A DNA stretch of 64,000 nucleotides, from assembly GCA_050230475.1 (NCBI GenBank), contig JBFLGF010000084.1, forward strand, positions 1-64,000. The letters run 5' to 3'. This document shows positions 5,284-47,119 of this stretch, in pieces. Numbering within the stretch: position 1 is the stretch's first letter; every line of letters begins with the position of its first letter. A program made the position numbers and the translations under genes. The notes under the pieces were generated by a model. It had not been told where the DNA came from. It saw nothing but the letters and a program-made list of their open reading frames with translations, and ran no database searches. This stretch comes from Ancylonema sp. Lineage: Eukaryota.

Positions 5284-6270
5284 AGGGCATTGGGCTGGGA
5301 GTGCTTCAATCTGCCCTGGCTTCGGGCCACCAGATCAGGTGTTACACCTACGTCGACAAAGACGACGTGAGCCGACGTGTGGCGGCAGCGATTCTTCGAA
5401 AACTCAAAAAACAATTCCCGGACCAGCTCTCAGATGCTGCCCTCCTTGGATTTGATGCTAGACTGCCTCGGAACATCGATCAGTGCAGTCCCACTTTTCT
5501 CACTAATCTGGTCGCCAATAATGGGCCAGTGGACGTGCTTGGAGCCACTTGGGAGTGCTAGAGTGTTAGCCGCGCGGGATACCGTCAAGGAATTCATGAC
5601 CCACGCTTCCGTTTCTTCTTCAATATGGTGGCAATCATCAATTTCTTCCAACGGGAGCAAAAATCCCCCCTAATATACATCCTCGAAAACACTTACCCCG
5701 GGGAACGGTGCACGACAGCTGTGCAGAATGCCCAAAATCTGGTGCAGGGATTTCTGGGAGCACCCATTCCCCTTGATGCTGCGGATATGGGATCGGTGGC
5801 GCACACAGTACGGCTGTACTGGCAGAGACGGCTCCTGACTCCAGAACTTCTTCAAGCCACTATGCCAAAGATGATGGTGCCCAAACCCACGCTGCGCTGG
5901 ATTCTGGGGCCTCACCACGTTCCTACAAAACCTGGTCACACAGACGAGCGTCCTTTTGCACCTTGGAACGTGGTCGGCCAGACTAGAATCTGCATGCCAA
6001 CAGTGGTCTCCTACATTCGGAGCAACGCCTACCGCAGCAAGTCCAATGGGGAGCCTGGAGAGGGCGAGGTTTTCAATCTGGCACGGGAGGAGTGGGAGGA
6101 GCCAAACTGCCAGGAGAAGGAGCAAATGATGGGCTACATGGCAAACGAGACGGAGTGCCCCCACGCATCAGAAGCAGAACGCTCCATGCGCCTCGGTCGA
6201 GCCCTGGCGTGGCCTGGATGCCAACGTGATGCTACACTTAGGAGCAGTGTTATTTGTTGCCCATGCGTAG
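5284..6270 (+). pseudogene. DNMT3/DRM-like C5 cytosine methyltransferase domain in Ty3/gypsy pol (family A, copy 1)
   Basis: GIGLG (end of motif I), YVDKD (II), DVLGATWEC*SVS (IV; stop 5559-5561), YILENT (VI), HTVRLYW (VIII), EKEQMMGY (IX), RLGRA/LDANVM (X, frameshifted). Confidence 0.85.
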
Positions 6271-6499: not shown

Positions 6500-6826
6500 G
6501 GAGAGTCAGAAGTCCACCTCAGCGAGATAAACAAGAAAAAATCAACGTGGGAGCCAGCCTTCAGGAGCAGGACCAGCCCAGAGTCCTGACCATGCTGAAC
6601 GCGAACAGTGATCGATTTGCATTCAGCATCGAGGATCTGGAACCTTCGAAGTATAGCGGGGAGCCGATGCAACCGGAGCTGACTTCAGACAAGCCGATCT
6701 TCCGTCCCCCGCACAAATTGGGTCAAGTGGAGCTCGATTTTGTGGAGGCCTAGTGTTCCAAGTTGGAGAAGCTGGGGTTCATCAGAAGGTCCCCGCAATC
6801 CCAATATGCATCCGCTACAGTGGTAG
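6500..6826 (+). mobile_element. N-terminal part of Ty3/gypsy reverse transcriptase directly after the DNMT
   Basis: ..FAFSIEDL..ELTSDKPIFRPPHKL..EA*CSKLEKLGFIRRSPQSQYASATVVV, a typical gypsy RT start. Interrupted by an LTR at 6827. Confidence 0.8.
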
Positions 6827-6902
6827 TATAAGGAGCGGAAACTTAGTGCGGAAAGGGGAATATAAGAAATGGAAGGAAGAAATGTGAAAGAGTAGAATAT
6901 GA
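6827..6902 (-). mobile_element. LTR fragment of family D
   Basis: Matches the first 76 bp of the LTRs at 19194 and 22695. Cut by N6903. Confidence 0.85.
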
Positions 6903-10870: not shown

Positions 10871-12022
10871 ACCCTCCCTAGTTGGCCGATCGGTAATCCC
10901 AGTGGGCTCGGCCCTTGGACCAGATTACGGTCGTACACCCAACGGGAGCACGCGGCAGCCGCGGGGTTTCCGAACGGGGCTCCCAGCAGGGTTGACGCCG
11001 GGGGCGGTCAATTTGCAGGAGCCGCTTGCAAAAACCCTGCCTCCGCCAAGCACCTCGCACGATATTATGTCATCCATAACGGAGATGGAGACAAAGAAGG
11101 GGAGACTTGGGACCAAATGTGCTGAGTTGAAAGCTCAGGTGCAGGTTGTAATCAAGCATCAATTGCCATAGGGTCAGGCTTTAATGGTGGGGGGACCCAC
11201 AACAAGTCAAGATTTGAGTTCAGTGGTCACGCCGGGAGGGCTGACACTAGGCGAGAAAATGAGAGCCCTCGCTGTCTCTCTTGTAGCACAGGCCCACACA
11301 AAGGTTCCTGATGTCGAAGAATCCCCTCAAGTCTCATCTAACAAGAGGGCAACAACAAACTGGAATGTGGTAACATTGCCAAACGATGATGGCTGCTTCA
11401 CAATGGACGGCATCATTTTGATGGACGCAATTGTCGACACGGGGGCAAAGAAAATGATGATCTGTGCAGCAGACAACACGTCGACAACGCCAACAAACTT
11501 CAAGACAACCTGCAGAAGAACAGTTCGGAGCGTCACACTCGGCAGCAGATTCCGCATCGACAATCCCTTCTTCACCGACAATCCAAGAAATTATATGCAG
11601 CAGACAAGTCAAGAAAAACAACAAATCGACAGAAGAGGTGCATGCCACAAGAGAAACTTTCCAAACTCAACGGCAACACCTTTCCCAATGATTTGCAAGA
11701 AACAATCTTGGATCAAGCTATGGCCCTAAGGATGAGCAATGGCACCAACGCCAAAGATTGCTTCGAGAAGTCAACAAACACCTGGAAGTGCTCAACGCAA
11801 AAGTGTTGGAGAGGGAATATCTGGACTCCATCGCACTCCGGAAGGAAAACATTATCCCTGCAATGCCAACAAGAGAGACACTTTCCCCTTTTCAACGCCA
11901 AATGGCTCAAGCAACGCAACGAGCAGCAGTGGAGCGAGCAGTAAGAGAGATTCGCTGCATTCTCATGTTCCAGCATACTAGTGGCACATCTCAAGGCAGG
12001 CCACAAAATCAGCAAGCATAAA
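10870..12022 (+). mobile_element. family B retrotransposon fragment: aspartic protease plus the linker that precedes the DNMT
   Basis: AIVDTGAKKMMI protease motif at about 11430. 11680-11955 is homologous to 41478-41667 plus 46870-46975, which lead into the DNMT at 47140. Confidence 0.7.
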
Positions 12023-12979
12023 TGTTAGGCCCCACTCCTATAGTCACAAGTGGAGTTCCTATAGTCTTGTTCCCTTAGCGAGTGTGCCTAACCCGCACTA
12101 GAGTGCTCTTAGAGTTCAGTTGTTCTTATATCGAGTGTGCACTTAGAGTGACGTTTCCCCTTGAGTGCTTAGCTATTGTTATATCGAGTTAGCTATCGTT
12201 ATGTCGAGAGTTCAATCACCCTCATTTCCATATTGTGTCCATAGTGTTCACCCTCATTTCTAGTATAGGTACTTGATAGGAGCAACCTTAAGGTTGCTCC
12301 TATCAACTCATGTAGTTCACCCCTTTATTACTCATCATTCCCATTATTTCCGTCCTCTTGTGAACATGCTTATCTTTATAGCTAGGTTTTCTCCATCCTT
12401 CGTCCTCCCTCACACTTTCCATAGGAGAAAATCTTTTTCCAGGGTTTTCCAATTCCTTCGAATCCTCATCACCTTTCCATTCTTTTCCCATCCAATTATG
12501 GCACATTTCGACAATCAAATTCCAGAGAATCCAGACCAATAATTTTAGCAAGATAGGATAGGCAATCTTGAGTACTTTGTCACATAAGTACAAGCGGACA
12601 ATCAAAGGCTGGTCGAGCAAGTTCGTGTACTTAGTGAAATTGCAAGACAGCCCGTCCACTACTACGCTCCCCAAAATCCCACTTCCTTTGACCTACACAT
12701 CCCCCCTCCTCCTCCATTCAATGGGGCTGCTACAGACCTCCCTGATTTCAAAATTAAAATACACAACTTTTTCAGTGGCAGCCCTGGCCTTTAGGATCAG
12801 GATTCTAAAAAATTACTCTAGACTAGGAATCTCATGGTGGGACAGGCAGCAATCTGGTTCCAATCCCAGATCGATTCTTCCACTCATCACCTCCCCTCAT
12901 CTTGGGACTTGAGCATATTCCTGGCAGCCCTCGAGGCGGTCTTTGGGGGGGGTGTCACAACCCAATCTTGGGAGCGACC
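12023..12979 (+). mobile_element. Ty3/gypsy 5' LTR (12023-12414, family E) plus degenerate gag
   Basis: TGTTAGG..CTCACA LTR with the same hairpin and PBS layout as families C and D. gag from 12498 resembles 15280-15660 (FKIK..FFS, AAIWF..DS). Confidence 0.7.
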
Positions 12980-13740
12980 TAGCCATCATATCTAATATCC
13001 AGCCTAGCCTCCAACTAGGTGCGGTTGGTTGCCCAACCAACTCGTCTAGTACTTAGGCATCATTGTTGCCTCTACCACCACAATCCCCCTCTCACCGATA
13101 TGGCTAAGTCAACTACTATCCACTACACATACCCATGAGGGTCTTCCCCACTCCCAACATTTTCACTCTTACATGCTTCGTAAGCTGATCATCAACCATT
13201 GCAAGGGTCCTAACGAACTCAAATGTGAACTGTCCACTCTCTAACTTCTCCCTCATAAAGTGATACTTGATTGCAATGTGCTTGCTCCTCTTGTGAAACA
13301 CCGGGTTCTTGGCCAACTTGCTAGCTGATTGGTTATCCAGCAGTAGCAGAGTCCCTCCCTCCTCAGCTCTAATCCCCATCTCAAGCTGCAGCATGTGGAG
13401 ATACACAACACTGCAGTGCAACTGTGCGCAACATGGCCCATGGCCATGTACCCCGCCTCTGTGCTATTGAGTGCCACCACATCTTGCAACTTGTTGTCCC
13501 AGCTGATAGCTGCCCCTTGACTTAAGAACACGTACCCACTCCTCCCCCTCTTGGTCTCCACGTCGCTCCCATAACTAGCATCGCTGTACCCCCAGATTTC
13601 CAGGTCCTCCCCATGACTGTACCCCAGCCCCTCCCCAGCTGTCCCCTTTACGTACCGCAACACCCGTTTTGCAGCCTCCCAATGCTCCGGCTGGGGTGCC
13701 TGGCAGTAGCTGCTAAGAGCAGACACAGCCATTGATAACA
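12980..13740 (-). mobile_element. copia RT C-terminus/RNase H, PPT and short 3' LTR
   Basis: HWEAAKRVLRYVKGT, GYSDASY, STEAGY, DNQSA..HKRSKHIAIKYHF; PPT tgagaggggga at about 13086-13097; about 105-bp LTR similar to 30607-30706. Confidence 0.85.
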
Positions 13741-14907
13741 TCCGTAAAGGATCACGATCATGTGTTGACACATTATGCACACCAATCCCTGATGCTATCA
13801 TTGAGACCAAGCTGTTAGAAAGTCTCTCTGTACTGCTTTCACAAATCAGACACACATGTCTAAAATACTGGTCATCTCAGCACTGACTTCCTTCAGCGGT
13901 TGCGGATCTCGACAACATATCGAAGACCCTGGCTTCACTCGATCTGAGATGTTAGATGTATATGTGTATTGGCTGTGCGTTCATGCTTTCCAAACAAATC
14001 AGTATCTGCTTTGTGTCCTTTCAACCAAACATTAATATTTAAAAAAAAAAATCACTTCATTGAAGCGTCGCACTGAGCTTCACTTTCGCCGATCAATGGT
14101 ATACAGATGCATTACCAGCTCGAGAAGCTTGCTGACAAGCTCTGAAGCCGTCGGTCCCGGAGCCTCCTCCTCATCAGTCAGTACAGATGAAGTGGCACGT
14201 GTAATGGTCTTCACGTACTTTGGCTGTAAACTCTCTAGAGCTACCAGTTGCGGACCGCTTTTCCATGCAGTGTTTGACCTGCTGCTTCTATGTTTGACAG
14301 TAGCAGTGGGGGAGATAAATCCACTTTGCTTACGGACATTCCATGGGGCCAGCGAAAGAACAGGGGGTGGTGACTTTCTCCCGGAAAACCCGCCAGAGCA
14401 TATCTCGGGAAGACGCAAAACATGTTGCATGTATGCAGCTTTACAAGTGTCGACCATTGCGATACCAAAATCCTTGACTGCACTCTTCACGGTGACCTCT
14501 CTACCTGCTCAGCTGGCAGTGGTAAGCCAAGATGACCAGATAAAGCAGTGAACAGTGGACAGTTTCGCACAGTCCAAATGCCCCCCCGAAATGATATTGC
14601 CCCATGCATCGCATCTCATCATTAGACTCTCATGACGGATACGTTTTCGATACGAGTCAGTTGCACGGTGCGGTGCGGTGCGTTTTTGGTTTGTGATGCC
14701 TGTGTGATATGATGAGCTTTACCTCTTTTTTGTTGAGCACACGTTCATGATAAAAGTCCGCCAGGAATCCCCTCTCATTACAACGGGAAAATGACCGACG
14801 TAAAACATTCAGCTCTAAATTATAGAACTAATGAGAATCATGTCCGCGTAATGCTCGAACAAAAATCATCAAACAAACAGCCAACACTAAAGATCTAAGT
14901 AGATCCC

Positions 14908-16313
14908 TGTTAGGATCCACTCTCTAGCATTAGTTCCGCTAGCGAGTGTTCCTATAGCGAGTGTTCCTAACCTTAGTTAGACCTTAGAGCCTTAACATAT
15001 GTTCACTCCTTAATTTCTCCGACTCCTACCTTTTTTCGTTTAGTGTGTTTTCTCTTTCTGTCACTTAGCGACACTCTTTTGTACTTGAGCACTTGAGAGG
15101 TGTCCTCTCAAGTGCTCTTATCAATTCATGTCTTTTTTCCTATTCCTGAATTTTGATATGTGTGTAATTGTGCTTATTACAAGCAAGGCATTCTTGCTTA
15201 GGAGCTGCCTTACACTTTGATAAGAGAAAAAAAATCAGTTTTTCAATTCAGCATTCATTACACTTTTCAAGTCATCATTATGGCTGATTCAAATGACATT
15301 TTTCAAAATCTTAATGTACACAGAGTTCAGCCACAAAATCAGGCACCCGTCTCCAATCCAGCACCCCCACAACCCCCCCCCCCGGATCTGCCTACTCCTG
15401 AACCACTCCCCTTTTTGGGAGTCCCTACTGATTTTGCTCGGTTTAAGCTTAAACTTGTTCATTTTTTTAACAATCATCAGACTTCCTTTCCTACTCCCTT
15501 CACTCGGGTTATGTTTACGCTAACTAAACTAGAGGGAGCTGCTGACAAATGGCTACTACATGTCCATCCGGACACGAACCTACTCCCCGCCAACTGGGAT
15601 TTCATGGAGGTCTCGCAGAATTGCAGCTTTTTTTCGGTGGGGCTGCCACCGAAGATGTAGATGGACGTGCCTGCGTTCCCTCCGCCAAATCGGTTCTGTG
15701 TCAGATTTGGCCATTGCCTTTCAGACCAATAACCCAATCCTTTAACCCACGCTGGGGTGACCATCCTCTCATCTTTATTTTCTCATAAAAATTGAAAGAA
15801 AATATTCGGTTTGAGCTTGCGGCCAAGGGTACCATACCTGCCCGGTTTGCGGAGTACGTGAGTGCGGCCATTGCGGTTGAACAGAATCAGGCTGCAGCGG
15901 TTCTCTCCAGGAAACAGCAGCAACCTCGCTCTCCCTTTCCCACCAATGAGCCCAATAAGCCCAACCCTCTCCTTCGCTTCTCTCCGTCACCCCCTCCTCC
16001 CTCCCACCACGTCCCCATGGATCGAGATGCTACCCGAGGTCCCCGATGCCCACTCACCCTAGATGAACGTCAACGCCGTGCGGCACACGGCTTGTGCGGC
16101 TACTGTGGTCAATCTGGCCACCTCATTGCTGCCTGCCCCGCTGCCTCCCGCGCTGGTCCTCGTCTGCAGGCCAGATCTGTTCAGCCCCTCCCCCAGAACC
16201 CTTATTACCCGTCGGCAGGTTTTCAGCCCTTACCTGCTGCCTACCAGTACATGCCAGCCCAACAAGGACCTTTTCCGGGTCCTTGGATGGCCCTCCCCTC
16301 TCCCCACACCACC
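14908..16313 (+). mobile_element. chromovirus-like Ty3/gypsy 5' LTR (14908-15214, family C) plus gag
   Basis: TG..CA LTR homologous to 38156-38462. gag with LEGAADKW, VPMDRDA, ERQRR..LCGYCGQSGHLIAAC; frameshifted; ends at N16314. Confidence 0.9.
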
Positions 16314-16314
16314 N

Positions 16315-16920
16315 ATTCATCTTAAAGATGTCGCTCAAACCCCCCTTCACGCCCAGCAAGCTCCTCTCATCCACCCACACTAGCAGAAGGTCGTCGACAT
16401 AGAAGGCAAGAAGATCCTGCTCTCCCCCTCCCCCTTGACATAAATGCCATGCTCCATCTTCAACTGGACGAATCCTAGCTTCTTTAGAATCCTGTCGATG
16501 GTCTGGTTCCACATGCGTGGAGACTATGTCAGGCCGTACAAGCACTTCCACAACCTTCACACTCTGTCTCCCCCCTCCACCGGTGCCACCCCCTCTGGGA
16601 TCTCTACATAAGTCTTCTCCTCCAAGTCGGCGTAAAGAAAAGCCGTAGCCACATCCATCTGGTCCAGCTCCCACTCCAAGGAAGTTGACATCGCCACCAA
16701 CGCCCTCACACTCTCGAATCTTACGGTAGGAGCATACGTCTCATCATAATCCAGCCCCTCTACCTGCCTGAACCCCTTGGACACTACCCTGGCCTTATAC
16801 TTATCCAGGTTCCTAGCAGCATCCGTCTTGATCCTCAGCACCCACTTTGTCCCTAATACCTTCTTGCTTTGGGGTCGGGGCACCTCCTCATACACGCCGT
16901 TCTCCCACACCGACTCAGCT
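16315..16920 (-). mobile_element. copia reverse transcriptase fragment
   Basis: KWVLRIK..KYKARVVSKGFRQVEGLDYDETYAP..QMDVATAFL..FYVDDLLL. Confidence 0.9.
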
Positions 16921-17029
16921 CTACTTTGTCGTACTACTTAGCATCGTGTCCTCATAGCCAATTATGCATCACTCTCACACGCGTGATCCAACTCCACTTA
17001 TATTGTTAGGATCCACTCTCTAGCATGAC

Positions 17030-17770
17030 CCCATACAGATCCTCGTCTGTCTAACGATGTTCCATGGAGAGAATGGACGCACATCCGTGTGGCCAGGCTT
17101 GGTAGGAACATGGTGGGGTCCCAGGATCCAGCGAAGGGTGGAAGTGGGCACCATCATCTTGGGCAAGGCAGCTTGCAGCACCTCAAGTGTCAAGAAGTTT
17201 TGCTAGTAGAGACGTACCCGATGGGCCGCCGAGCCCATGTCTGCCGCGTCAAGGAGGATTGGTGCACCCAAAAAATCTTGTACCAAATCCTGGGCATTTT
17301 GAAATGCCTTCGTGTAGCGGTCCCCGGGGTAGGTATTCTCCAGGATGTAGATAAGCGGCGACGTTTGCTCCCACTGAAAGAAGTTGATGATCGCCACCAT
17401 GTTGAAGAAGAACCGGAATCTGGGGTCATGTACTCCCTGGCGGTATCCGGCCCTGTTAACACTCTGGCACTCTCAGCTAGCACCCAACATGTCGACTAGG
17501 CCGTGTCTGGCCACCAAGTTTGTGAGGAAGGTAGGGCTGTGCATTGGTCTATGTTTTGCGGCAGGCGATCTTCAAATCCATGGATGGCAGCATCTAGCAG
17601 CTGGTCTAAAAACTGATGTTGAATCGTGCGAAGAACTGCCGCTGCCACGCATCTGCTCACATCATCTTTGTCGACGTACGTATAACATCGAATCTGGTGG
17701 CCGGAAGCCAAGGCGGACCGAAGTACCCCCAATCAGATGCCTCCAAACAGTTCCAAAACATGGAGACCGT
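17030..17770 (-). pseudogene. DNMT3/DRM-like methyltransferase domain (family A, copy 2)
   Basis: GLHVLELFGGI* (motif I), YVDKD, DMLGAS*ECQSVN (IV), YILENT (VI), AHRVRLY (VIII). Collinear with 5284-5980. Confidence 0.85.
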
Positions 17771-19193
17771 CTTGCAAAGATTAGGGCGCTAGTTGACATG
17801 TGGTGGTGTTGGTGGGGATGGCGTTGTACATCTCTTGTCCCACCCAAGACGAGGTCGGGTGGATGGGATCTGGATGGAGGTGTTGAGCTTGCCGCAGGCG
17901 AAGTATGGCATTCTCCCGTCGGGTACGGTGGTTGGTCACCACCGCTTGCAGTTCAGCTGCAATGGCTGCGTCACGTAAGCGAATGGCTGCCATCTGATGT
18001 GGAGCGGCATGGTAGCCTACTTCTTTGTCCTCCTCCTCCTCACGGATTTGGTCGTAAACCGTGCCTTGCACGTCTAGCAGGTATGCTGCTTCGTCGATCA
18101 AGCCGACCATGAAGGCAGTAGCTACCACTGGAGGAGTGGAAGTGTGACATGTGGCAGATAGAGAAGAGGATTTCAGTCTACTGGATTTGTCAAAGTACCG
18201 ATAGGTAAATTGTTCTAGTATAGGCATCATAGATTCCCTTGGCTGCCCGTATGAACTCCATTCCCAATAAGATATCATAGGCAGGGGTGTCTATGATTGA
18301 AGCATGAACCAATCGCCTATGCTCATGAGGGGTGTTTCTGGCACGGACAAATTCAAGGGGTTGAGGAGTGGTCCCACGAGAACTGGCCAGCGCTCCATCA
18401 GCCGTGATGAATTCGATGCCGCGCACCAATGCGGGGGATGTTCACCCCCACGGCTACCGCATAACGCTTGCTCATCATAACACAAACCGCTCCCGTGTCG
18501 ATGATGACTTGTTGGGGGATGCAGTTGTTTACGTCGAGTACGGCTTTAGAGTTGTCAAGCAAAAGTGCGGCCGCGTGTGTCTTGGACATCTCCTCCTTTG
18601 CTACCGCAAGTACAACTTCTTCTTGCTCCATCCTCGGATGTCGTTCCTCGTTCGTGGCTTTCTCCCAGATTGCTGCTGTCAACTCAGCCAGGAGCTGCTG
18701 ATTGTCGTTGATTGAGGTCTGAAGACGTGCTGCTGCTTGGAGTGGAGTCTTGCCTTGCACGGGGTCCCCCCCCACAGATAGTGGGTCCGGGAACGTGTGG
18801 TCTGGCGGGAAGTGGAGGTTAGTGGTTCTAGGGTCCAAGCTGGAAGCGGGCAAGGCATGATGAAATGTCTGGGGAAGATGACCGGCTCCTGTCCGCTATC
18901 CTGCGATGTCATCTTCTTCCTCCTCCTCCTCCTCCTCCTCCTCTTGTTGTGGTGTACCTAACGGGACAGCTGCGGGGCTAAAGCGGACTCGACGGACAAT
19001 CTGAGTGGCTTCCTTGGTAGTTGCGGTCGGTATGGACACACGTATGGATCTGCGGCTGGCCACTGCAGCATGTGCTGGTCGAAGGTAGGTGAGGGCCATG
19101 GTCTGGTACTTGTAATCTGGCGAGATCTGGGATCGCAACTTCTTCCTCGCTTGAACAGACATGCCGTCCATTCTTCTCTTTTGGATGGACTCT

Positions 19194-22100
19194 TGTAAGG
19201 AGCGGAACTTTAGTGCGGAAAGGGGAATATAAGAAATGGAAGGAAGAAATGTGAAAGAGTAGAATATGATGAATAGGAAGACAAGGGACGAGAAATGGGA
19301 CGAAAGAGGGGGACGCACTTAAGGGAACACTATTACATGAGTTGATAGGAACGATCGAATAGATGTTCCTATCGTGTCTTAAGTACTATTGGGGAACTAG
19401 GAGGGACGGAGACTCTAGTGTAAGAACAGTAACTACTCAAGCGAGCGAAGCGAATCGAATAGCTAACGGGAAATACGAACGGTGACTACTCAAGCGAGCG
19501 AAGCGAATCGAATAGCTAACGGGAAATACGTCGGGATAGAACTAATGACTATGTGTACGGAAACTTAAAAGCTAAGCGAAACGAAAGTTAAGCGAAACGG
19601 AAGTGAAGCGAAACGAAAGTCAAGCGAAACGGCGGGCGGAATTCCCGTCGGGCTAAGTATCGTACTCTACTTAGTATCGTACGTTAGGAACACACTAGTG
19701 ATCCTAACAGGATCCCCCGTTAAAAGAACAAAAGATGATATCGGGGTTTCAAAGGAAATTCAATATAAAAGATATATTGTGGACGTGGAAGACTGAAGTG
19801 GAAAGAACGGACTAGAAATAAAAGATTTGAATGGGTCGGAACGGTGGAGATGCGCTAGATTGGGAAAAAGAGACCAGAAACTAAATGCGAAAAATTGGAT
19901 ATGGTGAAGTGGAGCCCCCCGCGGATTGGTTGAGGACGTGGGACGGAGGTGACTGGAAGGACGAGATGAGGGGAATCCTGAAAAGGACGCTGCGCCGTTG
20001 GTTCGGAAAGAGTGGACGGTCGCGGGAGGGGAAAATAGTGGAGAAGGCTTGAAACTGAAAATCGGGTTACCGAATTGAAAATAGCGATTTTGGCCAAGAT
20101 TGGATGGAGAATAAAAAAAAGAGGGCAGAGACGGGGCCACACCCAGGGATGATCGCCAGACCGAGGTTTTGGAGGGTGAGGGAAATATATGCGCGACGCC
20201 GATGAATGCGAGATATTGGACGGTTGCAGGACGGCGATTGTTGGAGGGAGCCACGCCGGCTTTGAATGAGAATCTCGGGACCGGAGTCACGTCGGACCAT
20301 GCACCATGGACGAGAAAGGGTGCCGATTGACGAAGCCATGGTGATGGAGTAGCAGTCGGCGTAGTTGGAGTGACGGAAAGGGCTGCGTGGATGTCATGGA
20401 GATCGGAGGACGGACGGCTAAAGAAGGAGGAGGACGGGCTGGCTGAACAGGGCCGTGGGTCGGGTAGGACGGCGGGGATGGGACCCGGAGGCTGGCGGCT
20501 GGAAGGGAGGGAGAACAGGCAAACACGAAGGTAAGGGGACGGATGGATGATAAAACAAGTAGGGTGAATCTTGTGGGATGCCAATAGCGTGGATGCCAAC
20601 AGCATAAGCTAGGTGCCCGGGGTTCGACTCCCCGGGGGATTATAAACATAAAAGCAGAATGTAGTAATAGAAAGAATGATGAATGTAGGGTGTATGACAG
20701 GAAAAAAAAAACGAGCTTGTGGATTGCTGGATACGGCAGCTGGCATGGTAGGGCGGTGAGCATGACAGGGTGTTGTGGTAGACGCAGCAGCGCTGTTTGA
20801 TGGGTAGGTAAGGCTGCAGGATTGGGGGGGGTTTGGTGGGGAAGGTGATGGAACAGGGCGGCATGGGCGAGACCCAGCGGCTGGAGGGGAGAAAGGGATT
20901 GGGACCGAATGTGGTTCTGGTTCTGATTCTGGTTCTGATTCTGGTTGAGACGCTGGTTCTAAATGTGGTTCTGGTTCTGCTCTTGTTGTTGCAGCTTGTT
21001 GTGGTTCTGGGTCTGGTTTCGATTCTGGTTTTGGATTCCGGTTCTGGATCTGGTTGCAGGGACTGGAGCTCAGGGCGTGACCTGAGGCTGGATGAGCTGG
21101 ATTTGGGTCTGGGATTGGGGATGGGTTATGGGTTTGGACTGGTTGCAGGACGGGAGCGGGGGCGGGAGCTGGCGGGGTTTGGCGGCTTGGAGAGATGGGA
21201 TAGAGGGAGGAGGCGGAACAGAGTGGCAGGTAAGGAGTGGAGAAGGGGAAGGGGGATGGGAGGGGCACGACAGCTAGGACGGGACCCGGCGGGATGGAAG
21301 GGAGGTGGGGGATGAATTGGTGCAGGGCAGGGAGGCTGGGGCTGGGTGGCAAGGAGGGGGGGGGGTGGGGCAAGATCTGGCGGCTAGGGGGAAATGGAGC
21401 TCGGATGGGGCCTGTCGGGACAGGTAAGGTGCCGGGAGGGGGGGGGGGGCTCTGGAATGGGACCTGGCGGGGCAGGATGGACCTGGCGGGGTTTGATACA
21501 GGGCGGCTTCGGCTGGGAGAGATGGGATAGAGGGAGGAGGCGGGACAGAGTGGCAGGTAAGGAGTTGAAAAGTGGAAGGGGATGGGAGCTCTGGCCGAAC
21601 AGGTTTGATGAGATTGAGGGGGAACGGGGATGGGAGGGCAGGACAGCTGGGACGGGACTCGGCGGGATGGAAGGGAGGTGGGGGAGGAATTATTGCAGGG
21701 CGGGGAGACTGGGGCTGGGTGGCAAGGGGGGGGGGGAAATGTTATGGGGGCAGGATCTGGCGGCTGGAGGGGAAAATGGAGCGGATCTGGTGGCTGGAGG
21801 GGAAAATGGAGGTGCTGGGAGGGGTGGGGGGGCCTGGGATGGGACCTGGCGGGGCAGGGAGGATGTTGGGGGGGGGAAGGGGAAAACTGGTGGTTGGAGG
21901 GGAGGGGGAACTAGGATGAGCCCTTGCGGGGCAGGTGGCTTGCTGGGAAGGGGGTTGGGGTGTTTCTTGGAGGGGCGGGAGGGCTGGCAGAAGTCTGGCA
22001 CGTGTCGTTGAAGCCGGTGTATGGGAGGGGATTTCAGGCCGGTTAGGGGACGTAGGAAGATGGACAGAGTAGGAGGAAGTAGGGAAGATGTGGACTTTGA

Positions 22101-23215
22101 AGGTCTGCTGTGGTAGGGTAAGGAGGGGGAATGGATTGAAGAGGATGATTGTAGAAGTGAGAATAGGATGAAGGGGAGGGGGGGGGGGGGGGCAGAAATT
22201 GGTATGTTGGGATATTTGAGACGAATTAATGTTTTATGCAAATTGCTGAGTTTTGTTGGTCTGAATGCTTTGCGCTGAATTGTTTTTGCGCTGAATTGTT
22301 TTAATTCATGAAGATTTTGAGGGCGGGGATGATTTTTCGGAAATGTAAAACACTAAATTCTGATTGAAGACGGGCCACGCGGCAGTCTCCTCCACCATGT
22401 GGTGGCGAGTTGAGCCATGAGAAAAAAAAACGGGAATAAAGAAATGGAATAAGATGAGGGAAGGAATGAAGGAAAAGGGAGGAAAAATAATGAAAAAAGA
22501 AAAATGGAAGAGAAAGAAAAGGATAGAGATAATAAAAAAAACGGCAAATGGCGAGAAAAAATGAAGAGAAGAAGAGGGAGAAAAGAAGGAGATGAAACTC
22601 CCAAAACAGAAACGAAGGAGACGGAACTCCCGAAGCAGAAACGAAGGAGACGGAACTCCCAAAACAAGAAAGTTTATTTCCTATCAAAGTGTAGTGTAAG
22701 GAGCGGAACTTTAGTGCGGAAAGGGGAATATAAGAAATGGAAGGAAGAAATGGGAAAGAGTAGAATATGATGAATAGGAAGACGAGGGACGAGAACTGGG
22801 AAGAAAGAGGGGGAAGCACTTAAGGGAACCCTATTACATGAGTTGATAGGAACGATCGAATAGACGTTCCTATCGTGACTTAAGTACTATTGGGGAACTA
22901 AACTAGGAAGGACGGAGACTCTAGTGTAAGAACGGTAACTACTCAAGCGAGCGAAGCGAATCGAATAGCTAACGGGATACGAACGGTGAGTCCTCAAGCG
23001 AGCGAAGCGAATCGAATAGCTAACGGGAAATACGTCGGGATAGAAATAATGACTATGTGTACGGAAACTTAAAAGCTAAGCGAAACATAAGTGAAACGGC
23101 GGGCGGAATTCCCTTCCGTCTAAAGTCAAGCGAAACGGCGGGCGGAATTCCCGTCGGGCTAAGTATCGTACTCTACTTAGTATCGTACGTTAGGAACACA
23201 CTAGTGATCCTAACA
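19194..23215 (-). mobile_element. non-autonomous LTR element (LARD-like, family D)
   Basis: LTRs 19194-19709 and 22695-23215 (TG..CA), 5-bp TSD ACTCT, purine tract next to the 3' LTR. The 3-kb interior has no gag or pol motifs. Confidence 0.9.
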
Positions 23216-25164
23216 ACTCTGGTATCTGTTTTGGATGCTCCTTCCAGAATTGTGCTAAGGTGTGTCCTTCCTTTTTGCAGCCCGAGCAGATGACGTCCTT
23301 CGTGCAGTGCCCGGCCAGCGGGTCGACTTTCGTCGAGGCTGGAGGTGCTGGTTTTGCCTCTTTGGGATTGGGACAATTCCTTGGCGATGTGGCCTTCGTG
23401 TTGACACCGATGGCATCTCCGGTTATGAGTGATGCTGGGATCCACCACCCTACTCCCCAGGCGATCCTTGAGTTGTACTCTTTCTCCTAACCGATCTGCC
23501 ATGGCCCTCTTGGGTCGTGCATCCACCACCACTTCCAGGGCAGCGTTGACGGGAGCATGGGCATCATAGGAGCAAGGATCGGTGGAGCGAGGGGGTGGAA
23601 TCTCTCCACACTTGCGCATTTCAGCTTCGTGGGCGATGATGTTCATCTCCACCTCACGGGCGATGGCAATCATTTCCTGGCGCGTGGATGGATCTTCCCC
23701 CCGAATGCGTCGCTTATCATCCCTGAGTCTCCATCTTGGAGAAGGTCTTCTTGCAAAGGAAGACAAAGATGTGTTTTCGGAGCACCAAAGCTAGATCACG
23801 CTCGGTGGTGAGATGGGCATTCAGAAGTGGGATGGCCAAATTGTCGAATCTAGTTGCCTGATCTAACAGCCCCTCGCCCGGAAAAGCTGTGAAATTCCTG
23901 AGGTCATCCAGATAGTCTGCTTGCGAGGACTGAAAAGTTTCAGCCACAATTAGGAGGAATTCTTCCAACTCCTCGGGCTCCTCTTTCGGATCTGGCCTAA
24001 GATCTGGCACGACTGGGGCTCGGCCAGGTCTGGACATGCGGGTACATTTCATGTCGTATATAGCTCGAAGACGGTAATATTTTCTCCATACATCTCGCAC
24101 AGGTTCCCTGGGGACAGCGTCCTCATAGTACTGGTTGTCTAGATCTTTGTGGTCCCAGGAATCCACAAACTCATTTAAGAGTCTTCGAGCCTGACCAGTT
24201 ATAAGGGCACCCAACTTCTTTAAGTATTCATATTGTGATTGCCCCCGTGTGATGTGTCTCTGAGTATCCTCCTGCAAGTCTTCCCAACCTTGCCTAGCTT
24301 ATCGGAAGAACCACTCTTGCAAGATACCTGGTCCACCCGAATACAGGGTGGATGCGGTTGCCAAAATCATTCCTGACAATTTTTTTTTTTTATTTTTTTT
24401 TTTTTGTGATAACACTTGGTCAGATTATATCCAAGCTTGACAGTGGCCGGACGTCCCTAAACTCGAAAGATCTTCTCGATCACTAGTTGCTGATCGGTTC
24501 TATGGCCGACACTAAGGTCCAAATGCTAGACGACAATAATAACGACCAATGCGACATGGTCACTGCTATCGCCGACACCTAACAAGCATCCGTACATAAT
24601 TGCATGTCCTTCTAAGGCCTATCTCAACACATTGCCTGTTCTATGCCTTAGCTAGAATATTGCGGCTCACGTCACTCGTTGTCAGATGCACTTTAACGTG
24701 TCGCGAAGCGACAAACATGTTCGCGCCGCCCAAGGCTTTCTAACGGTAGTCTTGGCGATCGCGGAGACGTCCCAATTCTCCCAACGGTTGGGTGAGGATC
24801 TTGACTTAGCTAGCTCCGTCTCAGGCGGCGGTCATGGCGGGGACACCTGACCAATGATTCCCCTAACCGAGTGCACACTCACGCCCCTCCTATTCCGTCT
24901 GTACGATTGGCTTGTTGCAATGATCGCCCTCTAAACTTTAAAGTTCCTCCGTGCTATACGAATAATTAAACCAACATATAGTATTCTGCCGAACCTAGGT
25001 TGCGCGGGTGTTTCCGCCGAAACACAAATTTCGCAGTCAAACAGGCGTTTTGCAATCAAACATGCGTTTTGTAAGGACCTAGCCCAAGGCAAAATTAACC
25101 CGTATCATATGAGTTAACCGCCTTATTGGCATTGTATAAGCACACGAGTGTTTATGGCATGACA

Positions 25165-25540: not shown

Positions 25541-27324
25541 ACTAATTTTCGCAAAAGTATGCGATTATGTCAATGTCACAAGTTGTGCAAACAACTATGA
25601 TGTCATAGTTTCGCTCGTGGAGATTACTATGGCATGTGTACCACGGATATATGCACAACATTTTTGGGACTCACCATCAAATTTGTGGCACTTGTGAATA
25701 GCTAATTTATATATATCTATACAGTTCGCAGAAGTGAAATAAATTTTCAAGGTAGGATCATGTTTGGTATGTAGAACCTCATTTACAACTCCGTTGTGTT
25801 CAAATTCTTCCCATTCCTATAAATCACAGTTCTTCCATAGTTTTATTGTTGCATGCATCACCTTTCGAATCCATTTGTCTCTTGTAACATTCCTTTTGAA
25901 AGTTAATTTTGGCGATCTTCATTTCATTGCCATCGTTCTTTTTGCATCGCCACAAAGATGGGTTGCTTTTAGGTTCGAGAGTGAGTGTTTTTGGGCTACG
26001 CACGTATTTTTGTGAAATGCGTTGAAAATAAATAACAAAATCTAAAGACAGTGAAGAAAATAAAGATAGGACACACCTAAACGCATATAAAGTGATAGTA
26101 TTTGTGCTACTGGCATTGGCATTTGGGCTAGTTATGACTCAGCTTTCTACCGTGCCTCGAATGGTAAACACGGGGTACCATAGAGACGGCCCTGATCTAG
26201 TCCCCAAAAGACTTGGTCTCCATGCTATTCGTAGTATCACAAACTTTTGACATAAACGAATGAACATTTGTGAAATCCGTCTCCATCCTCTTATTGGCAT
26301 CCTTCTTTGTGGTTTTCCAATTTCTAGCACATCGCATTGTTTGACATGAGGGAGTCAGATGTTGTAGGAAAAAGGTGTCCGAGTCATAGTTCACGTGAGG
26401 TGAATGTGAGATTACAGGTCAAATCCGGTCGAACGTTGTGTATGCAAACTAAATGTGGTATGCTGGGTTGATTTATTTGCGGACTTCATAGATGAAGTGC
26501 ACTAGTACCCTCTGCCACATGGACTACTTGGTATACCACTTTCGCAAGCGATTCCTCATTTACAAAGCAATGCAATATTACACGACAGAATGCAATATTA
26601 CGATACTTTAATATACTACTCTGTTGAAAACTCGCGTGCACCAAAGTGTACCAAAAAACAGTCTAAACACCGTCTCAAATTAAAGAATACCTCTGTCTCA
26701 ATGTCTGGCAGGTCTGGCTTGTGAATGCCACAATGACCACAAGTCTAGCCACTCGGCTCTTGGAGGTCCTTCATGTGTCTTCATGAACGAAAATTTTTTA
26801 GGGTGTCGATAGAAGGCTGCATAGGATAAATGTGAAGTTCATGCAATTTCGTATTTCATACGAAATGTCCTAAGCTCCTCAAACAACGCCGACACATTGG
26901 CAACATATTTCACGTGACTCACCTCTTTCATAGAAAAGAAGATCAATAAAAAATACTCGTGGAACCCCAACAATGATTGCATCCCTACTCCAACCATCCC
27001 CTACTCCAACCATCTCACAAAATCAAACAAACTGATCATGGGACAATTCTATCGAACTTTCCCTCATGTAATCATTTTTTCTCGCTCAATATGTTTTCTC
27101 TTTTAGGCTAATCTTCCCATTAGGCCATGCTGGACAGAGGGAGGGAAAAAACGAGGCTACTTTCATGCATTAATACAGCAATGGCTGCTGCCTGACTATG
27201 CCCTGTCGATCTTTCAAAGGCTCACTTTGACAACAATGAACATTCCAGAACAATTGCAAACTCCTTCACAACATCCCATAAAGAGTTTGATTTAAATCCG
27301 TGGCCGGACTATCTACCGCCAAAT

Positions 27325-29864
27325 TTACTGTTGTGCACATTGCACTCTCTGCCCTGGACCCCCATCCTCTTCATCCTCATAAGCTTCTTGAGATGACTGC
27401 TTCCTCCGCATCTCCTGCTCAATATCTACATCATACATCGTCGTCTCCTCACACTCATCGATCTCCATGGGGGTCAAAGAGGAAGCTGGGCGAGGAGGAA
27501 GAATGGATTCAAGACTCTTGCATGCCTCAGGACTCAGAGATCCAGCCTCAGGGAACTCGACGTTGAATTTAACGAACAAACGCCCCTTCTCAAACGGCCT
27601 CTGATAGTGAGGCATCCCCTCCTCATTTATGGCCTTGAATTGCTCTGCCAAGGGAGCAGTGCAGCCATTTGTTATGTCAGTTACCAAAGGCTCCTTGATC
27701 ACGCCGATCAAAGGCAGATTTTTTATTTTTTTGACTAGGTATCATGTCATGGCAATCTTTACATAATGCATATGTACGTGTGTGTGTGTATGTACGTATG
27801 TACGTATGTATGTATGTACAAGCACCATAGTACTGGCAAAACTAACTAGTATTTGTATCATACCCTCTAGTGCATTTAGATATGGTGGGTATGGGTGCTT
27901 ACGAGGCTTGATGATCTCTCCCACATTAGATTTGACGAGAAGCGTTCTGCCATCAAGATGCAGAACAGAGGTTTGGAAGCCACACAGGGCCTCAGTCAGT
28001 GTCAAATTGTGGTCCATGAACAGATCCTCCCCCTTCCGCTTGAATCGAGGGTGCTCCTTCTGCTGGAGGACAAACACTATGTCTCCAGTGACAGTGTCAG
28101 GCTGCACACACAGACAAACAGCGAGAAAAACTCATGTTTTGGATTTGGTGCATTTCATGTAGATGAGTACTCATCATGACATCATGACAAAACAGAGAAA
28201 ACATATCTGATGGACGACAGCTGAAGACATACACCAGTCAACAAATCGAAACTGTCATTATTGCATTTGCTACATCACCCTTATCCCCACAGTTCCTTGT
28301 ATGCCTTCACTCACAGCTTCATCTGCTTCTCCCTGGAATGTGATCTTTTGCCCATGCAACATGCCCTTCTCGACATGGACTTCCAACAACTTCTTTTCCT
28401 GAACGACCTTTGTCCCTTTGCACTGGGGGCACCTGTCCTTGTCGCTGATGCTCTCACCTGCAACAACATTCACGGGTGTAAGTCTACAAAGCATTGGCAT
28501 TGGTATTTGTTTAGAGCGACTGTTGTCAGACATAAAACAGAAAAAAAGACTTGGTTGATGTTGTGCATGCAGAGCATTTGTAAAAGGGAGAGCCCTTATT
28601 AGAATCATACAAGTTCACTGTACCTGTCCCTTTGCAGTCGCCACAGGCATGCTGAACCTGCTGAATCATGTTGGGGCCGAGCTGCCTTATTGACATTTTC
28701 ATACCAGAACCCTGGCAGCCTGCACAGGTGCTTGGCTGCCCTGATTTTGAGCCTTTGCTGCATCGACCAAGAATGAAATGACAGTAAGTAACCATCTGTC
28801 ATCACTGTAGACAACATAGAAATTGAACAGATATCATAATGATTATTGAGTCCAGCATACTTTCAAGTTCCTGTGCAGGATTTTGTGACTTCGGTCCTAT
28901 AAGTTTCCAGCATAACTCACCCTTTGCACTTGGAGCAAAGCACATTCCGCGACAGATTCAATTTTTTCGATGAGCCATTGTACAGATCTTCGAGAGTCAC
29001 TTTCAGTGGGTGAACCACGTCTTCTCCACGACGCTGCCTTCGACCTCTGCCCCCCATACCCCCTGCATGGAAGGCAACGACAAAATTGTTACATTCCAAC
29101 CACAGTCGCATGAAAACACTATTTCTGTGACTCACAACTCTGACACTCTGACACTCTGACACTCTCTTCGACCCCTACGGTTGTTTGAATTATTTAGCGA
29201 TCGCAGCTACTGTGACTGCCTAAAGGTTGGAAAAAGTATAATTGCAGGAGGCGATCTCTGTGTGGATCGTCAATATGCCAGATATTTACCTCCAAAGCCA
29301 CCGCCAAATCCTCCTCCCCCTCCTCCCCCGAAGAAAGACTCAAAAATGTCGAAAGGATTGTGGCCGCCACCACCACCTCCCATTCCCTCTTTGAGCGCAT
29401 CTTCGCCGTAGGTGTCATAGATCTCACGCTTCTCAGGATCGACGAGAACTTCATACGCTTGTGAGACCTCTTTAAACTGCAAGGACAGAGGTGACTTGGA
29501 ATCAGATCTACAGACCTACCTTGTCAACAACAAGGATGTATGTTCCACATCCATCTGGCGCTCAAAAGAGACACTCCGGACGCATTTATATTCATGGTAA
29601 ATTCCCCGATCGGAGGCACAATATGTTTACGCCACCACCTCCTCATCTCACGCACGATCCTTAAACAACATGAGAGACAAAAGGCAATCACTGAGATTCC
29701 TACATGGACCTTACTTTCTCCGGATCGCCACCCTTGTCGGGATGATTTTTTATCGCTGCCTTGCGATAAGCTTTCTTTAGCTCTTCGGAGGATGCGGATT
29801 TCGCCACACCGAGAACATCGTAATATTTTGAGCTGTCACTCTTCTTCGGTTGTCCCCGAAACAT
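27325..29864 (-). CDS. type I DnaJ/Hsp40 chaperone (ATJ2/ATJ3, YDJ1-like), 7 exons
   Basis: Exons 29864-29715, 29476-29290, 29062-28921, 28757-28624, 28457-28315, 28101-27903, 27644-27325 with GT-AG introns. J-domain HPD, G/F region, four CxxCxGxG-type repeats, C-terminal CAQQ CaaX. Confidence 0.97.
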
Positions 29865-35062: not shown

Positions 35063-36399
35063 GCACCATTCAATCTCTGTTGAATTCTCCTGACCTCAGG
35101 TGTGTGAGGACCTGACACTTGAGCAGAGTATGATGACCGAGCTCAGTTCCTTCAGGCAACAGATTTATGTGTAAAGTTCCGAATCACTACAGATCGCAGG
35201 AAGGTAGTACACGTGGTAAACCACTCGGGCAGAGATGATATGACTTACCATTTATATCGTCTCGCACACACAGTGTAGGTCTGTGAAACCCCATTTCTAT
35301 TCGGACATCAAGGACCAGGTAGGCGAGTCCGAGAAAGAAGGTTACCACTGCTATGGCCGCAAAAACATTCGCTACGCAGCCCCAAGTGGGCACGTGTCGA
35401 TACTTCCTGATCAGCCAAACCCCGGAGGAAGAAAAAAGTGATGTGCATCGGTCAGAAAACGGATTTAACCTTGTTGACCTGGACGTCGTTCTCGTTCAAA
35501 TTTTTCGATCGAATTCATATTTCTCTACTCCACTTCTGAATGTAAAAGAGTTTTATATAAGTTCCTTGTACACACCGTGGCAATGGAAGTCGGCCATTGA
35601 CGTGCATGCGGCTAGAAGTTGATCGGGGGGTGTCCTCGGGAGAAGTGCCGGGTGACCCTGAGGTGGGTAGCAATTGAATGTTCTCATAATTGGGTCTGTG
35701 TAGATGAACTCGTTGTGTGGGCTCCTTCGCTTTGGGTCGAGCGAGGTTTGCAGCCCAACTGGAGGAGGGAGTGCCCATCATATATGAAAACACAGAGGGT
35801 TATCATGAGGAATTGGGTTGGGCACGTGATGGTGATATGAATGAAAATTCAGATTGAGGACCTGCTGCGGAATGTGATTGGTACTTACAGAGCAGGAGCA
35901 GTGGGCCGTAGGCAGCCTACACTAAACCTAGACTAGGTCTACACGACATTTTTTTTTGTGTACGGCTGGTGAGGACTTCGAAGTACTGGCTAAGTTTGGA
36001 GTGTTCAACGCTTATCTTGGTCTTGGTAAAAAAATGCTTTTTGGACTCGGGCCCGACAGGAGGGTGGCGCAGTGATTAGATTCGTGCGATACCGCTTCGA
36101 AGACAAGAGTCATGTATTATATTAAAACACACTCGAATACCTCTTTGGCACTTTCCTCTATGTAAGGCTTGCATAATCACTTTGTGCAACATTAGATCAA
36201 CCTAATTCCTTTAATGGAAAAATTGACTCTCAACATATTTTTCTAATATTCTAGTAGCACTCATCATCACGTGAAATTATGTTGTGTACAACTCACGTGT
36301 ATACTTTGTTTATAACTTGCGTACATTATTGAAATCTCGACAAGTGAGCTATCTCACAACTTCATTACATAGATTAATGAGGGCATAATAGCCAGGACT

Positions 36400-38462
36400 A
36401 CATCCCGGCGACACGCTCGGTGGGCGGCCACCCTCGCTGCCCACCATTACACCATCACCTATCGGAAAGGTGCCATCAATGGAAAACCTGATGCCCTCTC
36501 ACGAAGGCCAGATCTTCAACCCCCTCCCCTCCCCTCCCTCCCCATCATCCCGCCCCCAGCCACAACTCCCTATCTTTTCCACACCCCTCACCTAATCGGA
36601 GCTGCGGTGCTGGTCAGGCCAGATGATCCCCTCCTTCCTAAAGTTGCAGCAGCCCAAGCGGCAGATCTTGCATTGTTTGCACTCAAAGCACATGTTCTGG
36701 GAGGAGCTGGCGAGGAGTCAAACCCCGCACTCCTAGCAGGCAGCCCATCGGGCAGTTCGTGGGGTCAGTATGAGGTTAGGGGGGGTCTGCTGTATAGTCA
36801 AGGCAAGCTCTGCATCCCCCCCATTTCCGGGGCCCTAATCCTTAAACTACTACAGCAAAATCATGACAGCCCGTTGGCGGGGCACTATGGGGTGGCGAGG
36901 ACCCAGGCGCTACTGGCGCAGTACTACACCTGGCCCGGACTTGCTGCGGCGGTTGCCAAATACGTGGGGAGTTGTGATACTTGTGCGCGCAATAAGGTGG
37001 TGCGACATGCTCCCTACGGTCTCTTGTCTCCTCTTCCTATCCCTTCCAGGCCCTAGAGAAGCGTGTCCCTTGATTGGATCACCGACCTGCCTCCAAGCCA
37101 CTACCACGATGCTATCCTCGTGGTCGTGGACCGCCTCACTAAGGCGGCCCACTTCATTCCTACAACTAAATCCATGGCGGCTCCGGACGTGGCTCCACTT
37201 TTCCTCCAGCATGTGGTTCCGGCTCACGGTCTTCCTGACACCCTAGTGAGCGATCGCGATCCGGTGTAATATTCACTTCCCACTTGTGGCGGCGGCTGCT
37301 AGAGCTGCGTGGCATTCAGGCCAATCGCTCTACGGCTTTCCATCCCCAGACGGACGGGCAGACGGAGCGGTTGAATTCGGTGCTGGAGCAGTACTTGCGA
37401 GTACTTGTCGGACTACCAACAGTCCGACTGGGCCAGCCTCCTCCCTCTGGAAAAATTTTCATACAACAACTCGCGCCATTCAGCCACAACAATCTCCCCA
37501 TTCTTTGCCAACTACGGTTTCCATCCCCGGATGTCCCTGCTCCCCCCAGCCCCAGCCTCCCGCACCCCTGCTGCCGATTCCTATGTCGCGCAACTTCGGG
37601 AGGCCCAAGATATTTTGCAAGAAGCTCCTCAAATCCCGCAAAGCCATGGAGGTTTCGGCCAATGGAAAACGCCGACCGGCTCCACCCTTCGTCGTTGGTC
37701 AACAAGTGTGGTTGTTGAGGCGCCACATCACGACAACCCGACCCTCGTCAAAGCTGGATGTTCGTCGACTCGGTCCCTATCCTATCATTGGCCAAGTCGG
37801 CTCCTTAGCTTATCGCTTGGGGCTGCCTTCCCACCGTTAAAATCCACCCCGTCTTTCATGTGAGTCTCCTGGAACCACATGTTCCCAACACTTTCCCGGG
37901 AAGGGTCGTGGCGCCTCCTCCAGCCATACAAGTGGATGGTGTCCCTGAGGAGTTCGAGGTCCACTCAATCCTAGATTCGCGAGTTCGGCGCCGCAAGTTG
38001 GAGTATCTAGTGGATTGGGTCGGCTACGATGCATCTGATTGCACTTGGGAGCCGGCAAATGCACTGACCAATACTGCAAATGCGGTCGCCGATTTCCATC
38101 AAAAATTTCCGTCTCGGCCTCGCTGACACGTGCCCTCCTTTTGATGTTGGATCCTGTTAGGATCCACTCTCTAGCATTAGTTCCGCTAGCGAGTGTTCCT
38201 AACCTTAGTTAAGACCTTAGAGCCTTAACATATGTTCACTCCTTAGTTTCTCCGACTCCTACCCTTTGTCGTTGTGTGTGTATGCTCTTTTTGTCACTTA
38301 GCGACACTATTTTGTACTCAAGCACTTGAGAAGTGTCCTCTCAAGTGCCCTTATCAATTCATGTCTTTTACACATCGTGTTCTCTTCCTATTCCTGAAGT
38401 CTGAGATGTGTGTAATTGTGCTTGTTACAAGCAGGGCATTCCTGCTTAGGAGCTGCCTTACA
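36400..38462 (+). mobile_element. chromovirus 3' half: RNase H end, integrase, chromodomain, 3' LTR (38156-38462)
   Basis: [90 protein letters not shown]. Confidence 0.95.
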
Positions 38463-41477: not shown

Positions 41478-41667
41478 CCTTTCCCGATGGTTAACCAGAA
41501 ACTGTCCTGGATCAAGTTATGGCCCGGTGGATGAGCAATGGCACACTCGCCCAAGAGTGCTTCGAGACGTCAACAATCACTTGGAAGTGCTCAATGCAAA
41601 AGTGTTGGAGAGGGAACGTCTTGACTCAATCGCAGCTCGGAGGGCCAACGTCATCCCTGCCATGCCG

Positions 41668-46869: not shown

Positions 46870-47119
46870 AACGTCATCCCTGCCATGCCGCCACGAGAGA
46901 CACTTTCCCCTTTTCAACGCCAAGTGGCACAAGCAGCACAACGAGCAGCAGTGGAGAAAGCAGTTCGAGAGATTCACAACAAGCGTCGATGGATGAGAGG
47001 GTTACAAATCAAAGCATAAGGCCTTTCTCTCCAGCCACTCACCAGAAGTGTGGAGCCTAGGTCCGGGGATCCCATCCTTCAAGCCGAGGCCATCGATACC
47101 ACTCCTATCACTTTCTCTC

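What the first reader, a model, noticed from the sequence alone, without database searches (positions are those of the whole stretch)
15115..15226. Self-priming (tRNA-independent) primer sites with covarying bases in three LTR families
None of the three gypsy-type LTRs is followed by a TGG tRNA PBS. In each, the sequence just after the 5' LTR is complementary to a site inside that LTR. Family C: TTGATAAGAG (15217-15226) vs CTCTTATCAA (15115-15124). Family D, minus strand: TTGATAGGAA (22687-22678) vs TTCCTATCAA (22852-22843). Family E: TTCCATAGGAG (12417-12427, partly decayed) vs CTCCTATCAA (12297-12306). Changes are compensatory, and each LTR site lies in or beside a hairpin. This matches the self-priming mechanism known for the fungal Tf1/sushi group, here in a plant-lineage genome.
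Basis: partly seen in the sequence, partly recalled or inferred. Interest (0 to 1): 0.7.

Follow-up and report, generated by a model that had tools for sequence, protein, structure and literature searches.

The report
Self-priming retrotransposons in a glacier alga
Three related jumping-gene families in what is likely an ice-dwelling alga have no tRNA primer site; in two of them the spot is instead an exact match to the predicted start of their own RNA (the third copy is damaged), so they likely prime their own copying as the yeast element Tf1 does, a trick already predicted in print for moss and club-moss relatives.

Summary
Confirmed for C and D (10/10 bp, chance about 0.01 each); E is a decayed copy (7 contiguous bp). 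All three LTRs share one design: TATA-like box, primer-like 10-mer ending ATCAA 43-44 nt on, LTR end CA, 2-nt spacer CT, PBS starting TTGAT, no TGG. Related fungal-type elements show the same spacing, and Selaginella SM-Tcn1 has the same core with a 15/15 match that its describers missed. Close RT relatives of C fall on the Tf1/sushi side of the chromovirus tree (100/100). Self-priming is therefore likely (0.85), but no transcript start could be measured. It is not new for plants: Neumann 2019 predicted it for 83% of 1500 moss and club-moss Tcn1 elements, and this scan noted it before on other DNA (moss). What is added: a likely streptophyte ice-alga host, a 4-kb non-autonomous member, a strong hairpin over or beside the primer site that would block priming from upstream-started RNAs in D and E, and an odd RT active site (I/LLDD in 19 of 19 relatives, PQG in 16). 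New member of a known kind.

The parts
14908..15214 (+). Family C 5' LTR (TGTTAGG...CCTTACA, 307 nt)
   Evidence: 93.5% identical (273 of 292 aligned) to LTR 38155-38462
15082..15089 (+). C TATA-like box (TACTTGAG here; 15087 is A in about 98% of laid depth in X1), start 43 nt before the primer 3' end
   Evidence: promoter role inferred
15087..15117 (+). C hairpin, 14-bp stem, beside the primer site (overlap 3 nt in this copy)
   Evidence: z -7.8
15115..15124 (+). C predicted self-primer CTCTTATCAA (predicted RNA 5' end)
15215..15226 (+). C spacer CT and PBS TTGATAAGAG
15280..16325 (+). C gag, broken into pieces by stops and frameshifts
   Evidence: hits to Gag of P0214, E 2e-9
36373..38126 (+). 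C-family RNase H end, integrase and chromodomain with F/W/Y cage, frameshifted
38155..38462 (+). C-family 3' LTR; site reads CCCTTATCAA (38348-38357)
19194..23215 (-). Family D element, 4.0 kb, no gag or pol found, TSD AGAGT
   Evidence: LTRs 96.4% identical
22690..23215 (-). D 5' LTR (ends CCTTACACTACA; the 3' LTR lacks one 5-nt unit)
22879..22886 (-). D TATA-like box TACTTAAG, start 44 nt before the primer 3' end
   Evidence: promoter role inferred
22845..22874 (-). D hairpin covering 8 of 10 primer bases
   Evidence: z -4.8
22843..22852 (-). D predicted self-primer TTCCTATCAA
22678..22689 (-). D spacer CT and PBS TTGATAGGAA
19194..19709 (-). D 3' LTR, preceded by a GGGGGATCC purine tract
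12023..12414 (+). Family E 5' LTR, 3' end diverged from the rest of the family after 12388
12273..12306 (+). E hairpin, perfect 14-bp stem; left arm begins with the PBS sequence, right arm holds the predicted primer CTCCTATCAA (12297-12306)
   Evidence: stem without listed variants
12415..12427 (+). E spacer CT and decayed PBS TTCCATAGGAG
12498..12975 (+). E gag remnant with stops, cut off by a copia fragment
   Evidence: 28% identity over 65 aa to C Gag, E 6e-4

Best explanation
C, D and E are related Ty3/gypsy chromovirus families of the Tf1/sushi group whose PBS position matches a 10-nt site in their own LTR (exactly in C and D), and they likely start reverse transcription with their own RNA rather than a tRNA. 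Shown: LTR anatomy, complementarity, no TGG, spacing, tree position of close relatives. Inferred by analogy with Tf1: transcription would start at the site about 33 nt behind a TATA-like box; the first 10 nt would pair with the PBS two bases past the LTR end, helped by a stem at the LTR end; RT-RNase H would cut after ...AUCAA, and the new 3' end would be extended back through U5 and R. If the primer is copied into the plus strand, as in Tf1, a change at the RNA start would be carried into the PBS, which explains the paired changes without two separate mutations. D would be mobilised in trans; the E copy is dead. The hairpin's left arm lies upstream of the predicted start, so it would form only in the 3' LTR or in read-through RNA, where in D and E it is predicted to hide the primer.
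For: Exact 10-bp matches in C and D, chance about 0.01 each. Folding from the predicted start pairs the inner 8 primer bases with the PBS at P 0.95-1.0; z -3.5 against dinucleotide shuffles for both. Primer 3' end points at U5 across a 2-nt spacer, as in 16 of 24 circular related loci with a 9-11 bp duplex; in 13 of those a TATA-like box starts 42-45 nt before the primer 3' end (10 of the 13 are one family group), against 43, 44 and 43 in C, D and E. SM-Tcn1 (supplement S3 of PMC2864245, read by eye) has CA, 2-nt spacer, then TTGATTCAGATTGTG, the exact complement of LTR bases 392-406 ending ATCAA: same core, five further paired changes. Relatives 79-87% identical to C's RNase H-integrase group with fungal and vertebrate Tf1/sushi-type RTs, 100/100; a clade with the Closterium chromoviruses is rejected, p-AU 0.00015. 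In E-family contigs the stem and site show no variant at 8% or more in the three runs that cover them, while the loop and U5 vary. Neumann 2019: Tcn1 83% self-priming.
Against: No transcript start measured: all laid runs are contigs and the one RNA run covers only 12346-12389. The TATA-like boxes in C and D (TACTTAAG) are not canonical, and the motif was chosen after seeing them. E's PBS is broken and the family's PBS could not be read (nothing laid past 12389). The window holds no RT for these families; the tree rests on metagenome relatives of C. The third duplex of the Tf1 'pretzel' is clear only in C (6 A-U pairs). The conservation is biased toward reads that resemble the query. Host tRNAs could not be searched.
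Confidence: 0.85

Rival explanations
1. A host tRNA fragment or other small RNA ending in ...AUCAA primes at the conserved TTGAT core, and the LTR match is secondary.
For: The TTGAT core is constant in C, D and SM-Tcn1; half-tRNA priming exists in some copia lineages. No host tRNA set was available.
Against: The outer PBS bases differ between families and always follow their own LTR; Neumann 2019 found half-tRNA primers only in Ty1/copia; no TGG for a mature tRNA.
Confidence: 0.05
2. The match is a by-product of the U3/R hairpin (the PBS is a copy of its left arm) and serves RNA folding, packaging or strand transfer; or the site is the RNA's 3' end (R/U5 border) and primes from there.
For: In E and D the left arm repeats the PBS sequence; the hairpins are much stronger than in related loci (z -4.3 to -7.8 versus +1.4 to -4.3).
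Against: In C the hairpin barely touches the site yet the PBS match is exact; SM-Tcn1 has the match with no obvious hairpin (by eye); the TATA spacing fits a 5' end at the site; some other primer would still be needed.
Confidence: 0.08
3. Chance complementarity in AT-rich LTR ends.
For: Each match alone has p near 0.01, the families are homologous, and E fails.
Against: Same offset (2 nt), same position behind a TATA-like box, paired changes, and a 15/15 match in SM-Tcn1. None of 11 chance metagenome hits that carry the fixed core extends to 10/10.
Confidence: 0.02

Closest known systems
Plant Tcn1 chromoviruses (Physcomitrella, Selaginella SM-Tcn1; PMC6317226, PMC2864245)
   Same: Chromodomain with aromatic cage, 5-bp TSD, no tRNA PBS, 2-nt spacer, PBS starting TTGAT matching an LTR site ending ATCAA, TATA 43-45 nt before the primer end.
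   Different: [quoted passage not shown] Sister relationship to Tcn1 proper not tested.
Tf1/Tf2 of Schizosaccharomyces pombe and the Tf1/sushi group (Tj1, Tosmo, Tcn1 of Cryptococcus, marY1, vertebrate sushi)
   Same: PBS complementary to the predicted first 10-11 nt of the RNA; stem at the LTR end; RT relatives on the same side of the tree.
   Different: Primer 10 nt with a different sequence; cleavage not shown; third pretzel duplex clear only in C.
Spirogyra pratensis gypsy family G72 (PMC13519894)
   Same: A fungal-like gypsy family in a zygnematophyte alga.
   Different: Priming not discussed in the passages read; relationship to these families not tested.

Membership tests
Tf1/sushi self-priming group | No tRNA-type PBS (TGG) behind the 5' LTR | tested here: met
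   copia control has TGGTATCAGAGCC
Tf1/sushi self-priming group | PBS complementary (10 nt or more, starting 0-5 nt behind the LTR) to a site in the LTR | tested here: met
   C and D 10/10 at offset 2; not met by the decayed E copy
Tf1/sushi self-priming group | Site is the 5' end of the transcript | not testable with these tools
   only contigs available; spacing to TATA-like box fits
Tf1/sushi self-priming group | Three-duplex 'pretzel' around the PBS | tested here: inconclusive
   primer:PBS and LTR-end stem predicted in C and D; third duplex only in C
Tf1/sushi self-priming group | RNase H cleavage releases the primer | not testable with these tools
   needs biochemistry
Tf1/sushi self-priming group | RT-RH in the fungal/vertebrate chromovirus branch | tested here: met
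   for close relatives of C, 100/100; E linked by Gag, D by LTR motifs only
Chromovirus | Chromodomain at the integrase C-terminus | tested here: met
   PF00385 E 2e-14, F/W/Y cage, family C only
Tcn1 clade (REXdb) | Clusters with moss, club-moss and Cryptococcus Tcn1 RTs | not tested
   no named Tcn1 protein among the hits; nearest sisters unresolved
Tcn1 clade (REXdb) | 5-bp TSD | tested here: met
   D: AGAGT on both sides

The most novel reading that the evidence does not exclude
A distinct self-priming chromovirus lineage of glacier algae has rewired its RT active site (YxDD tyrosine lost, retrovirus-like PQG gained) and added a hairpin start-site check that lets only correctly started RNAs prime, so read-through transcripts and the 3' LTR copy cannot compete for the PBS.
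Probability: 0.25. Interest if true: 0.6.

Novelty: new member of a known kind. Interest (0 to 1): 0.3.

Why it matters
Self-priming has been shown by experiment only in fission yeast. These families extend the predicted mechanism from mosses and club-mosses to a likely streptophyte alga and show that the TTGAT/ATCAA core is shared with Selaginella Tcn1, which bears on whether plant Tcn1 came once from fungi or is older. They are high-copy, so 5' RACE and copy-wide covariation are easy tests. The atypical RT motifs of the clade are the more surprising lead, but the RT is not in this window.

Tried and rejected
No whole genome is held, so no copy-wide covariation. A core pattern scan of metagenome contigs gave 11 loci and a 16-mer scan of viral contigs 6; none extends to 10/10 or resembles the LTRs: chance. 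No tRNA gene in the window and no Rfam match at E up to 1 in 11900-23400. A search with the GT92 exon found nothing. Cluster look-ups of the 57-61% RT relatives gave no organism names. 8 of 24 circular related loci gave no self-priming candidate under my criteria. Levin 1995, Lin and Levin 1997 and 1998, Atwood-Moore 2006 and Esnault and Levin 2015 are not held; only their titles were seen. No paper found on Tcn1 in Zygnematophyceae beyond two HGT surveys seen as listings or on an ILDD reverse transcriptase (3 unrelated listings); these searches cover open-access text only.

Full report
Observation. The coordinates are right. C and D give exact 10-bp reverse-complement matches between the bases behind the 5' LTR and a site inside it. 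Against LTRs regenerated with the same dinucleotide make-up, a match of 10 or more at offsets 0-5 arose in 150 and 190 of 20000 trials, and in 70 of 20000 random window stretches; the window's copia LTR, which has a normal tRNA-Met-type PBS (assignment to tRNA-Met recalled), reaches 5. E keeps only 7 contiguous pairs. The three LTRs are homologous at the key points: all start TGTTAGG, end in ACA, are followed by CT and TT, and carry TATCAAYTCATGT, which occurs 5 times in the window, once in each of the five LTR copies. The covariation therefore amounts to two columns in three related sequences.

Anatomy. C: 5' LTR 14908-15214, broken gag from 15280; a second C LTR at 38155-38462 follows an RNase H end, integrase and chromodomain. 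D: a complete 4.0-kb element with LTRs 96.4% identical and TSD AGAGT, with no Pfam hit among the one internal ORF scanned and no hit from stored Gag/Pol proteins, so non-autonomous. Its 5' LTR ends in an extra 5-nt unit also seen in a third D fragment at 6823-6902, which restores the 2-nt spacer. E: 5' LTR with a gag remnant related to C's (28% over 65 aa, E 6e-4). Laid contigs show far higher summed depth on C and E LTRs than on single-copy DNA (for example about 76000 and 117000 against 12-27 in X1), so both are high-copy, although this is no copy number. The window's E copy departs from its family after 12388.

Geometry and folding. A TATA-like box starts 43 (C), 44 (D) and 43 (E) nt before the 3' end of the site. 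Among 24 related circular contigs examined without a TATA filter, 16 had an ACA end, a 2-nt spacer and a 9-11 bp duplex to an upstream site, and 13 of these had a TATA-like box 42-45 nt before the primer end; ten of the 13 belong to one family group, so this is about four independent types. RNA started at the site folds primer onto PBS with probability 0.95-1.0 for the inner 8 bases in C and D (z -3.46 and -3.45), with a further stem closing on the LTR end. This matches the Tf1 description (first 11 nt pair with the PBS and are cut by RNase H, PMC7175516 passages; three-duplex pretzel, bioRxiv 2022.12.06.519325 passages). With 40 nt of U3 added, pairing falls to 0 in D and to 0.5-0.7 in C, because a hairpin takes up the site. 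These hairpins are strong (z -4.3 to -7.8); weaker ones cover the primer in several fungal-type loci, so the feature is not unique. In E-family contigs from three runs the 14-bp stem and the site show no variant at 8% or more, whereas two loop bases and U5 vary; reads unlike the query are under-counted there.

Relatives. The RNase H-integrase fragment of C has 26 metagenome relatives at 59-87% identity among 55 hits. In a 42-sequence RT-RH tree (chosen from 115, which were thinned from 171) five of them form a long-branched clade on the side of fungal, vertebrate and protist Tf1/sushi-type elements, split 100/100 from Closterium, Paulownia, Sesamum and loci with a TGG PBS; holding them together with the Closterium sequences is rejected (p-AU 0.00015; groups were named after a first tree was seen). 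Their nearest sister is unresolved and no named Tcn1 was available. In the SM-Tcn1 record (supplement S3 of PMC2864245, read by eye) the LTR end is followed by GT and TTGATTCAGATTGTG, the exact complement of LTR bases 392-406; the authors reported no evidence of self-priming. It shares the TTGAT/ATCAA core and the spacing.

Host. An intact intron-containing DnaJ gene lies at about 27300-29500; its last exon's ten best-ranked clusters that were looked up include seven with names, all flowering plants, at 62-68% identity. An ice metagenome run holds single-copy window DNA at 99-100% identity (449 and 630 nt). A streptophyte of glacier ice, most likely a zygnematophyte alga, is my inference; it is not proven.

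Prior knowledge. PMC11042837 (passages) states that about half of Tf1 cDNA ends carry a copied PBS, which offers a route for primer and PBS to change together (inference). PMC5341516 (passages) shows that start-site choice decides whether Tf2 RNA can prime. PMC4600332 (passages) proposes the same for Tj1. PMC13519894 (passages) reports a fungal-like gypsy family in Spirogyra. This scan's earlier notes list the same signature in other genomes, including a moss; none matched this sequence.

Side result. In the alignment, all 19 close relatives have ILDD (18) or LLDD (1) at the YxDD motif and 16 have PQG where the other 96 mostly have PFG; none of the commonest motifs listed for the other 96 is of this kind. 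Ty3 has YLDD and PFG at these places. The open frames suggest that the enzyme works, but this is untested and the RT is not in the window.

Verdict. Real feature, likely Tf1-type self-priming (0.85), mechanism known and already predicted for plant relatives. New member of a known kind; interest 0.3.

Noticed in passing
P0001 and 18 relatives; not in the window: RT active-site motifs are atypical across the clade: ILDD or LLDD in 19 of 19, PQG in 16 of 19, CREG in 19 of 19, against mostly YLDD, PFG and TRYG in 96 other sequences.
   Followed up: partly
window 14903-14907 and 38463-38467: The two C LTRs 23.5 kb apart are flanked by the same ATCCC, like a TSD, yet host genes (DnaJ, GT92-like) and nested elements lie between them. 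Chance, a purine-tract remnant, rearrangement or assembly join; unresolved.
   Followed up: partly
window 17004-17027: A 23-nt start of a third C LTR inside a copia fragment, cut off by another element into which D later inserted.
   Followed up: no
window 17028-24300 and 7-573, 5296-5996: An unclassified repeat with an aspartic-protease-like DTGA motif and no Pfam hit, present in at least two inverted copies (about 74-76% identity).
   Followed up: no
SM-Tcn1 record, supplement S3 of PMC2864245: A 15/15 self-priming match that the 2010 paper reported as absent.
   Followed up: yes
window 41662-46872, minus strand: A near-complete copia element with LTRs 96% identical and a TGGTATCAGAGCC PBS.
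   Followed up: partly
loose end of run X6 before 12294: A further LTR family appears to share the box-hairpin-primer design with a D-like left arm.
   Followed up: no
L021-L058: 38 contigs filed in prokaryotic genome assemblies encode eukaryotic gypsy Pol proteins, likely binning contamination.
   Followed up: no
window 47020-47520: Weak C5 DNA methylase match (E 1.5e-4) next to the copia element.
   Followed up: no
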